Notes under the pieces: model-generated
Seen by the model: the letters and a program-made list of their open reading frames with translations, nothing else
What the model was told of the DNA's origin: nothing
Databases searched by the model: none
Part shown: piece by piece, positions 30,174 through 52,810 of the stretch
Layout of the letters: each line of letters starts with the position of its first letter
Numbering within the stretch: the stretch's first letter is position 1
Position numbers and translations under genes: made by a program
Assembly: GCA_030324005.1 (NCBI GenBank)
Contig: JARDVH010000031.1
Coordinates: 68,175,651 to 68,238,217 of the forward strand
From: Negaprion brevirostris
Taxonomy: Eukaryota
Direction: 5' to 3'
DNA: 62,567 nt

Positions 30174-30532
30174 ATGAGATGGAGCTGCCAGTGTTGGACT
30201 GGGGTGGACACAGTAAGAAATCTCCCAATGCCAAGTTTGCAAGATCCTATTAATTATCTTGGCTAGAGACAATTCTCACCTTTTTAAGCTGTGATTATCC
30301 CTGTCTCCATTCACACTGTTTGTACTTGTAAAGACTTGATTACCTGTGAAGACCTGCAATCCAATCATTCTTCACTTACCAATTTGTAATTATCTTGCAA
30401 TTATGTCTTGGCCTATATATGCCGTGTTTGTGAACCTACCTCCACTCACCTGATGAAGGAGCAGGGCTCCGAAAGCTCATGATTCCAAATAAACCTGTTG
30501 GACTTTAACCTGGTGTTGTGAGATTTCTTACT
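30174..30532 (+). mobile_element. Penelope-like element derivative (family P1): short inverted tail + pLTR with hammerhead; 10-bp TSD
   Basis: Starts atgagatggagctgccagtgttggactggggtggacacagtaagaa and ends ..aataaacctgttggactttaacctggtgttgtgagatttcttact; flanked by ataaggcaca (30164-30173) and ataagtcaca (30533-30542) inside the host LINE. Confidence 0.8.
30446..30482 (+). ncRNA. Minimal type I hammerhead ribozyme motif (PLE-associated)
   Basis: tcac-CTGATGA-a-GGAGC-agg-GCTCC-GAAA-gc-TC-atga: both core boxes intact, 5-bp stem II, loopless palindromic AGCT stem III, stem I with one mismatch next to the cleavage site. Confidence 0.75.
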
Positions 30533-45184: not shown

Positions 45185-45689
45185 ATGATCTTTAACATCA
45201 GTAACTTGATGTGGTTAACTGCATTAAAGATGTTATGCATATGCAAACTGTTGTTGTTGCTGTTGACTGAGCACTCAGAAACAGCTAGAGAAATCTGGGA
45301 CTGGATATTCAAATGTGGGGTCAGGATCCTGATGCACGGATGCATTCTAGGTCCTGATCCCGTCCCCGAACAGCATCACTCTCGTGAGATGGTCTTAGAA
45401 TGTAAAAGGTCCAATTGGCCAGGAGATTAGCTCGGTGCCTGGTGGGAATCACCTGCTGGGCACCAGCAGGAAATGCAAGTGGCAACCATATTGGTGGTTT
45501 GTGCTGCCCTGCCAATTTGGGCAGGCAACTCCTTGGAAGGCCATGGGCTGGAAAAAGGCAGAGAGCATGACAAGCTAAGGACCAGAGTTTGCGTTGCCGT
45601 CAACTGACCCCCACGTTTGTCTCAAAAATCTCAGAAAAAATTTATTTGGGCCCCAGGGCGAACATGACAGAGGTGAACTGAAGTACACA

Positions 45690-45900
45690 ATAAGAAGCCT
45701 CACAACACCAGGTTAAAGTCCATTAGGTTTATTTGGAATCACAAGCTTTTGGACATCTGCTTTTTCATCAGGTGAGTGAGGAACATGAAGAAGGAGCAAT
45801 GCTGAAAGCCCATAATTCCAAATAAACCTATTGGATTTTCACCTGGTATTGTGAGACTTCTTACTGTGCCCACCCCAGTCCAACGCTGTCTCCACATCTT
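45690..45900. mobile_element. PLE-derived fold-back element P1 (degenerate hammerheads), ~10-12-bp TSD
   Basis: taagaagcctcacaacaccaggttaaagtcc..tcatcaggtgagt / ..aataaacctattgga..cctggtattgtgagacttcttact plus tail gtgcccaccccagtccaacgc..tctccacatc; flanks gaagtacaca (45680-45689) and gatgtacaca (45901-45910). Confidence 0.85.
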
Positions 45901-46436: not shown

Positions 46437-46621
46437 ATGATGTGGAGATGCTGGCATTGGACAGGGGTAGGCACAGTAAGAAGTCTTATAACACCAGGTT
46501 AAATTCCAACAGGCTTATTTGGAATCAAGAGCTTTTGGAGCCATGATTCACCTGATGAAAGAGCAATGCATGATTCCAAATAAACCTGTTGGACTTTAAC
46601 CTGATGTTGTGAAGCATTACT
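46437..46621. mobile_element. PLE-derived fold-back element P1, opposite orientation, centre partly deleted
   Basis: Tail atgatgtggagatgctggcattggacaggggtaggcac, then agtaagaagtcttataacaccaggtt.. / ..tcacctgatgaaagagca..aataaacctgttggactttaacctgatgttgtga. Confidence 0.85.
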
Positions 46622-48682: not shown

Positions 48683-48946
48683 TGTGCAGGCTGTGTGAAA
48701 TATTGATGATTCTCTCTTCAGTAAATCCATTCAGCGGTGTCATCTTGGCACATTTCAGTTCAGCATGAGTGGACATTTCCTCAGCTGTTATCCAGCAGAC
48801 CAGCTCCTCATCATAAATAAAATCCAGTGCTATGATTCCATTAATGTTAACAGAATTGAGAGTCGGAACACTTGATCCATTCAGACTGGTCACCACAATA
48901 TTTTTAACATTGGCGATTAAAAGTACAGGTGGTCTATCAATGGGTT
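48683..48946 (-). CDS. LRP1B: Internal coding exon of an LRP1-family LDL-receptor-related protein, most likely LRP1B (exon-6 equivalent: end of EGF linker and start of first YWTD beta-propeller)
   Basis: Minus strand reads acceptor ttgttaatcttttccAG|AACCCATT... to ...CTGCACA|GTgagt donor; 264 bp, phase 1-1, open frame (E)PIDRPPVLLIANVKNIVVTSLNGSSVPTLNSVNINGIIALDFIYDEELVCWITAEEMSTHAELKCAKMTPLNGFTEERIINISHSLH. From memory this matches LRP1B (EPTDRPPILLIAN...[24 protein letters not shown]...LKC...TINI) and LRP1 (EPVDRPPVLLIAN...LKCARM...INISLSLH). The LDFIY/LNG motifs and giant introns favour LRP1B. Family call is strong; paralog call is moderate. Confidence 0.88.
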
Positions 48947-49378: not shown

Positions 49379-50627
49379 CAATTTACCTTAGGCAATTTAC
49401 ATGGCCTGGAATTTCAGGGATAGGTTTACTCCTTAACTCAGCAGTGCACTTAAAAAAGTGGGGCCAAATTCTAATCACGGAGATTGGGGTCCTCTCTGTT
49501 CCTTGGTGGGCAGCAATGAGAAGGCCCTGAGTGTTCCTAGTCTTTTGAAGGGAAAAAGGATTCAACATAATTGAGAGCATGATCTTCAGACTGTCCCCAT
49601 AAACATGGGAGCATTTAAACCAAGATGCTGAGGTGGGGTGGGCTGGGGTGGCCGGGGGAGGAGGGGTACTATAAACCTTTGCTACCTATCTGGCTGGTGG
49701 TGTACTGCCAAGGGATTATCCTCCAACAAGTGTGGCCTGGCTGATTTCTATGATTCGTAACTTCTGAGGAACGACAGCAGAAATCCATGGGCCACCAAAA
49801 ATTGTTGAACTTTTTGCACACTGACCGAAGTTGAAAAATCACGATCCAACTCCTGATGGGAGCAGCAGCCTTTGGTTTTCAGCAATACAATCACTGCAGG
49901 TATGGCACAGGAGGACTTGAGCCATGCCCCCTTGTGACGGGGCCAGACTGGGTACGCCCTTTGAGGTCTAACAGTTTTAAAGTGAAGGCAAGAGATCAAA
50001 AGAATTCCCTGCTATTATAACGGTATGTTGATTTTTTTTTTTGCTATTTCTTTTAAGCAGTCAATTCTATTATTATTGGTTCATTTAAAGTGTAAATTTT
50101 AATTTTATTTTTATGATTGAACATGAATATTATTTAATATGCACTAATGAAGATCTATTTTGCTATTTGTTTTAATCTGTGAAATTACTCTGAAAGTCTG
50201 CATTATATTATTATATAATTTAATGTGTGGCATGCTTATAATTGTTCATATGCTTTAATTTAGAATATGGAAGCTGAAAATGTAATTGGGAAGAAGAGAG
50301 TTCGGAGCTTCTTGGACCACGATTTGGATACCTTATTTCATGAGGTTAAGCAAAGAAGAGTTTGCAGTTTGAGCCATGGAAAGTCTAAGCCACCATGTGT
50401 TTATCATTAGTATTCTCCTGCCTTGTTTACTTTATTTATAATTATCTCATATTCAACTGTTCTGTTTTGATGTTTCAATAAAGCACTTGTGCAATTTCAT
50501 ATTTAAATATTTTGTTTTATTGCTTCAATAAAGCATGAGTAGAATTTTGTAAAGTTTAATCAAAGACATTTATTCACAAAAATAATGTTATAAATACAAA
50601 ACTTTGATACCATGTGAGCATTTAACT

Positions 50628-50839
50628 ACAGTAAGAAGTCTCACAACACCAGGTTAAAGTCCAACAGGCTCATTTGGAATCACAAGCTTTCAGAGTGCTG
50701 CTCCTTCATCAGGTGAGTCACTCACCTGATGAAGGAGCAGCATCCCAAATGCTTGTGATCCCAAGTAAACCTGTTGGACTTTAATCTGGTGTTGTAAGAC
50801 TTCTTACTGTGCCCACCCCAGTCTAATGCCAGCATCTCC
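50628..50839. mobile_element. PLE-derived fold-back element P1 (91-bp arms, 1-nt spacer, ~30-bp one-sided tail)
   Basis: Arms 50628-50718 and 50720-50810 are near-reverse complements around ggtgagt-c-actcacc; tail gcccaccccagtctaatgccagcatctcc. Confidence 0.9.
50680..50716 (-). ncRNA. Minimal type I hammerhead ribozyme motif, sense to LRP1B pre-mRNA
   Basis: Minus strand: TCAC-CTGATGA-a-GGAG-cagca-CTCT-GAAA-gc-TT-GTGA; intact core, stem I TCAC/GTGA, stem II with a G-U pair, palindromic AGCT stem III. Confidence 0.72.
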
Positions 50840-51103
50840 TGTAAACAAATAGGGAAGGGAAGTAGGGATTGAGGTCTGAATGTGAGGAGGGATATGGAGG
50901 AGAGGAGAAGGGACGGAAACAGCAAGGAGAGAGTTTGGACATATTAATTGTACATTTTATGTGTAGTCAGACTCGCCTCTCATGATCTCTGAACTTATGT
51001 TGAAGCCTCAAAAGAACTTCAGTGATTTTAAGAAGCCAGGCTAAAAGTATAATGCACCAGCGAAGGTAGAACATGACTCTGGGCGTGCAGGGGTGGGAGA
51101 GTC

Positions 51104-51273
51104 GGGGGGAATTCTCCGGCCCCCCAGTTGTGTGTCTTTTGGCACTCTGGTCTCGCTGCTATCAATGGAATTTCTCATTGATGTCACCTCATGCCACCGC
51201 AAAATCCACAGGGGTTTGTCCTCTTAGCAGGACCAGAGAATCTTGTCAATGTGAACAGTCGGAAAATCCGCCC
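51104..51273. mobile_element. MITE family M3
   Basis: ggggggaattctccg / cggaaaatccgccc TIRs; central atcaatggaatttctcattgat palindrome. Confidence 0.7.
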
Positions 51274-52164
51274 ACTACCCCCCCATTAGATTTTCAACCT
51301 GCACTGTATTCTGGAATACCGATCAGAGAGTTAGTTCACATCAGCTTACAGGAGGCTTGCATATGTNNNNNNNNNNCTAAAGCATTTGAAATGACCAACT
51401 TGCATTTTTCCCAATACAGAAGTAGAACGCATTTCACCCGATATCTTAAGAGGCTTCTAAGGATTAACATTGTGTCAGGGAGACTCTTACAATTAGGATA
51501 AACAATGCTTCTGAAAATACATAGCAATATCCAAATGAACTTGCACTGAAATCTATTATAGACACAGCAAACCCACTTTGTTATACATGAACGCATTTCT
51601 GGCTGGAACTAACAGCAGGTCATGACAAAGTTGTAAAAAAAATAAACATTTTTCTTTCACTTTCTGTGCGTTGCACATACGTTAAACATCTTTGAAACAC
51701 ATTTTCAGAAACATTAACCCATCCAAAGAATGTCTGCTGCCTCGACTTGCTTCAATTAGAGCAGAAAAATAGTGAGCAAATAAAGAAGCATAAAGGACAA
51801 GTACGCAAAATTAGACAGAGATTTCAGTGAAATGCTTCAATCCTGACAGCTTAAAGAGCAGAACTGGGGGATTAAACTTCATATGCTTTCAACACACGTC
51901 CACATGTCGGGCATTGCCCCAACGTGCATGGGTGGCACACAATCCCCGTTGGTCGAGATTCGGGCTCGAAGTTACAGGCCTATTTTTAAATTGAATTTTT
52001 TTTTTAAAAGTGGTTCAGAGGGCACCTTTCTATAGAAGTACCCCCTCAGTAGCTCATTACTGCAGTTGGGTGCTCCTCTGAAGATCAAAGGCTTCTTCTT
52101 GGCATTCTAGCTTTGAAAGACATTTTACCACCCTAAATTGAACAAGGAACTGGTTTCCATGCCA

Positions 52165-52356: not shown

Positions 52357-52574
52357 ACTTCAAATGGGTGACTATTTCTCCCCATCCAGGGCAGGATCGG
52401 GACCTGGAAACTGTTCCGACTCCTCTTTCCTGCCACTGAAGCAAAACATTCCTCAAAGGCACAGATGATATTTTGTTGTAAAAAAAAGTTCTGCAATTTT
52501 TGTACTCAGCTCTGCAGTGTTCATATATAACTAACAATAAAATGTTGGACCTCTACTCTAGTACAGAGATAGAT

Positions 52575-52810
52575 ACTTGATATAGGTCATAGNNNNNNNN
52601 NNNNNNNNNNNNNNNNNNNNNNNNNNNNNNNNNNNNNNNNNNNNNNNNNNNNNNNNNNNNNNNNNNNNNNNNNNNNNNNNNNNNNNNNNNNNNNNNNNNN
52701 NNNNNNNNNNNNNNNNNNNNNNNNGACAAAATTATATCTGCCTCTATTATTACCTCTGGCAGCTTGTTCCAGACACTCACCACCCTCTGTGTGAAAAAAT
52801 TGCCTCTCTA
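52575..52810 (-). mobile_element. CR1 LINE 3' end (mostly in gap)
   Basis: Minus frame RQFFHTEGGECLEQAA / VSVWNKLPEVIIEA, i.e. the FFTQRVV.VWN.LP motif. Confidence 0.75.

What the first reader, a model, noticed from the sequence alone, without database searches (positions are those of the whole stretch)
50628..50839. Penelope-derived fold-back element with head-to-head minimal hammerhead ribozymes, one intact in the LRP1B pre-mRNA sense
Seen: a 91+1+91-nt near-perfect palindrome with a ~30-nt one-sided tail. Each arm carries a hammerhead motif. The minus-strand one (50680-50716) has intact CUGAUGA and GAAA boxes, stems I and II, and a loopless AGCU stem III; the plus-strand one has lost GAAA. 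Established: Penelope-like elements carry minimal type I hammerheads that cleave as dimers, and their insertions often show an inverted pLTR plus a short 3' tail. Inference: this is a protein-free, MITE-sized ribozyme-bearing retroelement derivative ~1.7 kb upstream of the LRP1B exon. In the pre-mRNA the long hairpin would compete with ribozyme folding (self-silencing) and could be an ADAR/Dicer substrate.
Basis: partly seen in the sequence, partly recalled or inferred. Interest (0 to 1): 0.72.

Follow-up and report, generated by a model that had tools for sequence, protein, structure and literature searches.

The report
Decayed Penelope fold-back insertion stub
This is an ordinary, worn-out scrap of a very common shark jumping gene, two copies of its ribozyme-bearing end joined back to back inside an LRP1B intron and predicted unable to cut itself, though its many sister copies likely record where the element's RNA begins.

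Summary
The palindrome (80 of 91 pairs), 29-nt tail, hammerhead motifs and LRP1B-like exon 1.68 kb away are real. The arms are the pLTR of an abundant Neptune-like Penelope family; RT and GIY-YIG-like ORF pieces adjoin the arm in longer copies. A systematic 1.32-Mb sample held 77 insertions, 34 head-to-head. 'Intact' is overstated: the minus arm keeps both boxes, but CpG decay removed G10.1-C11.1 and a stem II pair, and the hairpin is predicted to bury it. Cores are no better kept than flanks (p=0.15). It is not its own MITE family: 14 other copies with the same centre come from several subfamilies, with the tail on either arm. The anatomy is published, and this scan noted it before elsewhere in this genome. 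Not found in my searches: family 5' ends pile up 5-7 nt before the core (714 exact hits at -6, 28 at the cut site), with an extra G in 80 of 100 listed. That likely marks a capped, uncleaved template RNA.

The parts
50628..50718 (-). Short arm: pLTR piece from family offset -6 to +84 (offsets count from C3 of the CUGAUGA box); ends at the short 3' end site
   Evidence: 5 differences in 91 nt from the family majority, 3 at CpG
50680..50716 (-). Minimal type I hammerhead remnant: boxes kept, stem II weakened (G.U at 10.1-11.1, one pair lost), triplet CUU; predicted cut between 50684 and 50683
50719..50719 (.). Single centre base: reads G just 5' of A(-6) on the short arm, where long copies have C; likely the extra G seen at most family ends at -6
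   Evidence: cap origin is inference
50720..50810 (+). Long arm, paired part: pLTR piece from -6 to +84
50722..50758 (+). Dead hammerhead remnant, GAAA box and stem II broken
50811..50839 (+). One-sided tail (+85 to +113), 5-6 nt short of the family's long end; no target-site duplication found beside it
48683..48946 (-). Host exon, LRP1B-like, 1,682 nt downstream in the pre-mRNA sense (context, not part of the element)

Best explanation
This is a decayed, protein-free stub of a very abundant shark Penelope-like retrotransposon: two copies of its hammerhead-bearing end (pLTR) joined head to head, likely written into the LRP1B intron in one insertion by the parent's RT-endonuclease, and predicted not to self-cleave. 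Shown: the arm is the pLTR of a family with RT and endonuclease-like ORF pieces; family 3' ends fall at two sites about 35 nt apart; most head-to-head insertions have one arm ending at each site; 5' ends pile up 5-7 nt before the ribozyme core, often with an extra G. Inferred: the enzyme cuts both target strands, starts reverse transcription inside the RNA at the two sites (as shown in vitro for the anole element), runs each cDNA back to the start of a capped, uncleaved RNA, and the two cDNA ends are joined through 1-2 nt of microhomology. That gives a short arm, a long arm with the tail and a variable centre. Since insertion the copy has decayed like its sisters, mostly at CpG. In LRP1B pre-mRNA it would fold as a long imperfect hairpin that excludes the ribozyme fold.
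For: Link to ORF: L091 RT piece hits Pfam RVT_1 above cut-off (E 5.5e-8); thumb, endonuclease and arm lie in order in L104, L107, L112, L113; tail runs into the ORF start in L034, L053, L056, L060 and others; relatives in several shark genera carry RVT_1/PF26215. Abundance: 77 insertions in 1,324,609 non-N bases, reversed-query control 0, about 1.0-1.6 x 10^5 genome-wide by extrapolation; 3 more in this window. Architecture: 34 of 77 head-to-head, none tail-to-tail; 3' ends 35 at +79..+88 and 56 at +114..+119 (reference stops at +119); 22 of 34 have one short and one long end, 29 of 34 exactly one long end; 7-16 nt TSD in 12 of 34 vs 7 of 284 mismatched pairs. 5' ends: 20 of 58 main-group fragments in -12..+10 vs 2 and 6 in the flanking bins; genome-wide exact patterns 606 (-7), 714 (-6), 293 (-5), 12 (+25), 28 (+29), reversed controls 0. 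Decay: CpG columns 135/372 changed, core 32/626, downstream 187/2759; 28 of 63 copies keep all 11 core bases, so intact boxes are common; 7 of 63 keep core plus full stem II. Folding. Literature: inverted 5'-truncated pLTR plus 30-40 bp tail (PMC8557442, PMC3846280, passages), two internal RT start sites and uncleaved template (PMC11167929), min-HHRs in fish PLEs, inactive as monomers (PMC4209133).
Against: No TSD at this copy, so its right end is probably eroded and single-event origin is not shown for it directly. The GIY-YIG Pfam hit is below cut-off (E 0.022) and 4 further linker/EN pieces gave no Pfam hit. A prediction of a blunt join of two cap-copied ends failed: only 2 sites have a 2-nt centre and neither is CG or its decay products, against 15 with this 1-nt centre. 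Inner ends of the two arms are somewhat more alike than random pairing (median unpaired centre 16 vs 27 nt, n=22, p=0.04), which fits snap-back as well. Pattern counts are not normalised for pattern degeneracy or subfamily variants. No intact full-length parent was found among the loci read.
Confidence: 0.87

Rival explanations
1. Same family and origin, but the inversion forms by snap-back self-priming of one cDNA (or on an antisense template, as proposed by Arkhipova et al. 2013) rather than by joining two cDNAs, and the pile-up at -6 reflects an RT stop or microhomology at hammerhead stem I rather than a capped RNA start.
For: Arms are more alike in length than random (p=0.04); several junctions show 1-3 nt overlaps and tiny inverted bits; 35 of the 80 G cases could be templated by an inverted arm, plus 8 more shorter ones; the double-cap centre was not found; PMC3846280 (passages) argues for self-priming.
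Against: A 1-nt centre cannot be a snap-back loop; a short-site cDNA cannot template a tail it lacks, yet the tail lies on the G arm in 7 and on the C arm in 5 of 15 same-centre copies, 3 unresolved (my reading of the printed arms); G stays at 37 of 57 after removing the 43 templatable cases, and is 30/100 at -7 ends and 39/100 at -5 ends (hand counts; tests).
Confidence: 0.35
2. The fold-back is an independently replicating non-autonomous unit (MITE-like or retrozyme-like).
For: Fold-backs are frequent (34 of 77) and this exact centre recurs at 15 sites.
Against: The 14 other same-centre copies belong to at least three sequence variants, carry the tail on either arm and share neither non-CpG change of this copy's short arm; one shares two changes of the long arm. 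Centres vary widely across insertions. Ends are asymmetric and TSDs vary 7-16 nt. No tandem direct units.
Confidence: 0.04
3. The copy is kept because it acts on LRP1B, as an intronic ribozyme or an edited or diced double-stranded RNA.
For: It lies in the LRP1B pre-mRNA and would form duplex runs of 25, 19, 14 and 22 bp on that strand. One single-depth contig of organism B covers 50810-50912 with 2 differences, hinting that the insertion is shared (30 letters on the element side, under the tool's 31-letter rule).
Against: Both arms carry ordinary decay (5/91 and 10/121 differences; family mean 9%); there are on the order of 5 x 10^4 such hairpins; the ribozyme fold is predicted excluded even in the 91-nt arm alone; metazoan min-HHRs did not cut as monomers (PMC4209133).
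Confidence: 0.07

Closest known systems
Complex insertions of endonuclease-bearing Penelope-like elements: inverted 5'-truncated pLTR plus 30-40 bp tail (PMC8557442, PMC3846280, PMC2377424; passages)
   Same: Head-to-head arrangement, tail on one end only, variable TSD, pLTR reaching the ORF start.
   Different: No ORF body between the arms; both arms stop at the 5' edge of the ribozyme; very high copy number in a shark.
[quoted passage not shown]
   Same: CUGANGA and GAAA boxes, unpaired base before stem II, 4-bp stem I, palindromic loopless stem III, dispersed single and opposite-strand pairs.
   Different: This copy has lost G10.1-C11.1 and one stem II pair; family stem II is 5 bp; sharks are not named in the parts I read.
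PAc, Poseidon element of the green anole (Frangieh et al. 2024, PMC11167929; parts 1-2 of 4 read)
   Same: Two internal RT start sites that define the tail, both strands cut and extended, uncleaved RNA as template.
   Different: Here the clade looks Neptune-like (Cys linker), the tail lies just before the ORF start rather than about 111-118 nt inside it, and the evidence is genomic only.
Non-LTR retrozymes (bioRxiv 10.64898/2026.07.22.740005; part 1 of 5 and passages)
   Same: Protein-free, PLE-derived, type I hammerhead.
   Different: Retrozymes are direct tandem repeats with a ribozyme in each unit; this is a single inverted pair.
Untemplated 5' G of full-length L1 insertions (PMC9341517, passages)
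   Same: Extra G at a sharp 5' end, at a pyrimidine/purine start, read as reverse transcription of the cap.
   Different: Proposed here for a Penelope-like element, from counts over fossil copies.

Membership tests
Endonuclease-bearing Penelope-like element | RT ORF linked to the repeat | tested here: met
   RVT_1 E 5.5e-8 on L091; arm and tail run into the ORF start
Endonuclease-bearing Penelope-like element | C-terminal GIY-YIG endonuclease | tested here: inconclusive
   Pfam E 0.022, below cut-off, on 1 piece; none on 4 more; VYL..YIG..R..H motif visible by eye after the thumb
Endonuclease-bearing Penelope-like element | pLTR present at the 3' end of the ORF and before its start | tested here: met
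   L053, L034, L107, L112, L113
Endonuclease-bearing Penelope-like element | Inverted 5'-truncated pLTR and a one-sided 30-40 bp tail | tested here: met
   34 of 77 head-to-head; two 3' end peaks about 35 nt apart; 29 nt in this copy
Endonuclease-bearing Penelope-like element | Target-site duplication at this copy | tested here: not met
   None here; present in 12 of 34 sister fold-backs and 4 of 14 same-centre copies; optional in the literature
Neptune clade | Cys-rich linker between RT and EN | tested here: met
   C-x4-C-x2-C in L107, L116, L110; feature per PMC3846280 passages
Neptune clade | Placement on an RT tree with named PLEs | not tested
   No named reference PLE proteins fetched
Minimal type I hammerhead of PLEs | CUGANGA and GAAA boxes, palindromic stem III, NUH | tested here: met
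   Minus arm only; plus arm lacks GAAA
Minimal type I hammerhead of PLEs | G10.1-C11.1 pair and stable stem II in this copy | tested here: not met
   G.U and a C.A mismatch; -2.0 vs -7.2 kcal/mol; met by the family majority
Minimal type I hammerhead of PLEs | Covariation between subfamilies | tested here: inconclusive
   One fully compensated stem II among 19 well-paired of 80 motifs; further variants seen by eye
Minimal type I hammerhead of PLEs | Self-cleavage as dimer or with protein | not testable with these tools
   Needs a bench assay
MITE | Uniform symmetric ends, fixed short TSD, clonal copies | tested here: not met
Non-LTR retrozyme | Direct tandem units each with a ribozyme | tested here: not met
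   No such direct repeat in 49500-52000; isolated inverted pair

The most novel reading that the evidence does not exclude
The roughly 10^5 stubs of this shark family are a fossil map of Penelope's replication cycle: the RNA starts, capped, 6 nt before the hammerhead core, about 30 nt behind a TATA-like box; RT starts at two internal sites, reads through the uncut ribozyme to the cap and copies it as an extra G; two such cDNAs, one per cut target strand, join head to head. This would explain the inverted pLTR and one-sided tail without antisense self-priming, and this copy is a textbook product.
Probability: 0.5. Interest if true: 0.55.

Novelty: new member of a known kind. Interest (0 to 1): 0.27.

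Why it matters
The copy itself matters little: it is one of tens of thousands and is decaying. The family pattern could matter to specialists, because how Penelope-like elements make inverted ends and whether their ribozyme cuts the template in vivo are open points in the papers read (PMC3846280, PMC11167929). A sharp 5' end with an extra G, and few ends at the cut site, give a precise testable RNA start and argue for an uncleaved template. It also implies that shark introns carry many 60-90 bp inverted hairpins, comparable in principle to inverted Alu pairs (my analogy, untested).

Tried and rejected
Rfam scan: 7 hits, all below gathering score, none a hammerhead. PDB searches: exon gave only weak LRP4/LRP6 hits; RT piece gave nothing meaningful. 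RNA: no RNA holder listed, so expression, editing and small RNAs are untested. Contigs of organisms A-C were swamped by paralogues; the second lay left the junction without cover, so presence at orthologous sites stays open. An apparent pile-up of 5' ends at +35..+37 near the cut site was rejected as a subfamily-divergence artefact. Double-cap centre: not found. In one search, 10 of the 32 two-fragment fold-backs were dropped (anchor missing in one arm 9, N 1), 14 of 113 fragments were dropped (N or edge 7, no 3' part 7) and 41 set apart as other subfamilies, 36 of 99 copies were set apart as other subfamilies. The -12..+10 bin was chosen after seeing the first half of the sample, and arms of one insertion are not independent, so its p-value is soft; the genome-wide counts are the stronger test. 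Two other splice-donor-like words on the LRP1B strand showed no exon. Searches for a published account of the 5' pile-up or cap G in PLEs listed none by title or abstract start; the library lacks most subscription journals and I opened no supplements, which may list shark families.

Full report
Observation. The window holds arms at 50628-50718 and 50720-50810 around one base, 80 of 91 complementary. The RNA hairpin is -145.8 kcal/mol, z -22 against 200 shuffles. The right arm continues 29 nt as a tail. The minus-strand arm reads stem I, CUGAUGA, an unpaired A, stem II, GAAA, AGCU and stem I; the plus-strand arm has lost GAAA. The exon at 48683-48946 on the minus strand has AG and GT ends, is 82% identical to a skate protein named LRP1B-like, and a second paralogue in the genome is 42% identical to that protein. 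The element is 1,682 nt upstream of it. Offsets below count from C3 of the CUGAUGA box.

The parent. The arm has many genomic matches (393 candidates, 40 scored). Walking out from copies showed that the tail runs into an ORF start and that the sequence upstream of the ribozyme follows the ORF's end. The ORF pieces include an RT (Pfam RVT_1, E 5.5e-8), then a thumb region, a C-x4-C-x2-C linker and a GIY-YIG-like stretch, followed by the arm in L104, L107, L112 and L113. The Pfam GIY-YIG hit is below cut-off and four more pieces had no Pfam hit. Relatives occur in several shark genera (117 proteins of 508 candidates). A Cys-rich linker marks the Neptune clade (PMC3846280, passages); I built no tree. 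All ORF copies read were broken.

Abundance and anatomy. I took 160 stretches of 10 kb, mostly at round-number spacing, from large scaffolds (1,324,609 non-N bases). They hold 77 insertions, against 0 hits for the reversed query, which extrapolates to about 1.0-1.6 x 10^5. Of the 77, 34 are head-to-head and none tail-to-tail; at least two scored as single look head-to-head by eye. 3' ends fall at +79..+88 (35) and +114..+119 (56; the reference stops at +119). In 22 of 34 fold-backs one arm ends at each site and 29 of 34 have exactly one long end; 12 of 34 have a 7-16 nt TSD against 7 of 284 mismatched pairs. This copy has none and its tail is 5-6 nt short, so its right end is probably eroded. 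This is the arrangement described for PLEs (PMC8557442 and PMC3846280, passages), and the two ends match the two internal RT start sites shown in vitro for the anole element (PMC11167929, parts 1-2). The window itself has three more insertions.

Not a separate MITE. The exact centre recurs at 15 sites. The 14 others span at least three sequence variants; the tail is on the G arm in 7 and the C arm in 5 of the 15, with 3 unresolved; none shares the two non-CpG changes of this copy's short arm, and one shares two changes of its long arm. Centres elsewhere range from 2 to 323 unpaired bases. The form is made afresh at insertion.

The ribozyme. Among 63 main-group copies not chosen for ribozyme likeness, non-CpG core positions differ at 32/626 and downstream positions at 187/2759 (p=0.15); CpG columns at 135/372. 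28 of 63 keep all 11 core bases, 14 also keep G10.1-C11.1, 7 keep a full stem II. So intact boxes are unremarkable. This arm's three ribozyme changes are all CpG transitions. As a 47-nt piece it still folds (stem probabilities about 0.83, family majority about 0.99), but in the 91-nt arm they fall under 0.01 and in the LRP1B-sense context to 0.000. Metazoan min-HHRs did not cleave as monomers and were weak as dimers (PMC4209133, parts 1-2); the anole one needed protein. Subfamilies differ in stem II while keeping the boxes, with one clean compensated case, which fits selection on master elements only.

What the family adds. 5' ends crowd at the ribozyme's 5' edge: 20 of 58 main-group fragments in -12..+10 against 2 and 6 in the flanking bins, peaking at -8..-4. 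Genome-wide exact patterns (four non-matching flank bases plus 19 family bases) gave 606 at -7, 714 at -6, 293 at -5, 12 at +25 and 28 at the predicted cut site +29, reversed controls 0; about 17 of the 100 listed at -7 look like read-through copies with a small change. The counts are not normalised, but I estimate the bias at about three-fold at most, against a 25-fold gap. In the 100 listed -6 ends the next base is G 80, A 10, T 10; G is 30 of 100 at -7 ends and 39 of 100 at -5 ends (hand counts; Fisher tests). Removing 43 cases that an inverted arm could template leaves 37 G of 57. None of the 20 long copies printed has G there. A TATA-like word starts at -38..-36 in 18 of 34 long copies, and A(-6) sits in an initiator-like word (motif recalled). 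An extra 5' G is read as cap copying for L1 (PMC9341517, passages). I infer a capped RNA starting at -6, copied uncut from two internal starts, with the two cDNAs joined by short microhomology; this copy's centre is that G. Against it: no double-cap centre, arms more alike in length than random (p=0.04), and the D. virilis promoter is internal and TATA-less-like (PMC2377424, passages). Snap-back remains a live rival. My searches listed no paper on this pattern, within a library that lacks most subscription journals; supplements were not opened.

Host effect. On the LRP1B strand the hairpin has uninterrupted runs of 25, 19, 14, 6 and 22 bp, enough in principle for dsRNA-binding enzymes (general knowledge), but this was not tested and nothing marks this copy out from tens of thousands. 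One contig of organism B hints that the insertion is shared, below the tool's bridging rule.

Earlier notes. After I had stated my reading, the scan's notes showed three like stubs elsewhere in this genome judged the same way; they prompted the TSD test and the 2013 paper. A word search found no note on the cap reading.

Verdict. Real, Penelope-derived, known anatomy, ribozyme likely dead in place; low interest for the copy, moderate for the family-wide 5'-end pattern.

Noticed in passing
window 30180-30532, 45686-45898, 46438-46612: Three more insertions of the same family; the first two have 10-nt TSD-like flanks, the second is a fold-back like the finding, the first keeps both boxes on the plus strand at 30450.
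   Followed up: partly
window 50720-50728 (minus) and 50710-50718 (plus): The antisense of the ribozyme's 5' edge reads as a perfect 5' splice-donor word (CAG/GTGAGT), so every antisense arm puts a donor-like site into a host pre-mRNA; 4 of the 6 such words in the window come from this family.
   Followed up: no
window 50714-50720: The junction creates TGAGTCA, an AP-1-like word (motif recalled); many -6 ends give the same word because TG precedes them in 59 of the 80 G cases (hand count).
   Followed up: no
L117-L276, L285: Several subfamilies with different stem II and cleavage triplets (CUC, CUU, CUA) but the same boxes and AGCU.
   Followed up: partly
L053 and L034: pLTR-to-pLTR units of only about 1.8 and 1.3 kb, apparently internally deleted Penelope copies.
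   Followed up: no
L278:520-783: A paralogous exon 43% identical to the window's, probably LRP1 (name inferred).
   Followed up: partly
window 50924-51080 and 51145-51200: Other repeat families lie just right of the element; organisms B and C have 22 more bases at 51144.
   Followed up: no
window 50444-50543: Two 50-nt direct copies, 74% alike, each with AATAAA, 85 nt left of the element.
   Followed up: no
window 52553-52807 (minus): A short frame that looks like the end of a CR1-type LINE (recalled likeness), next to an N gap.
   Followed up: no
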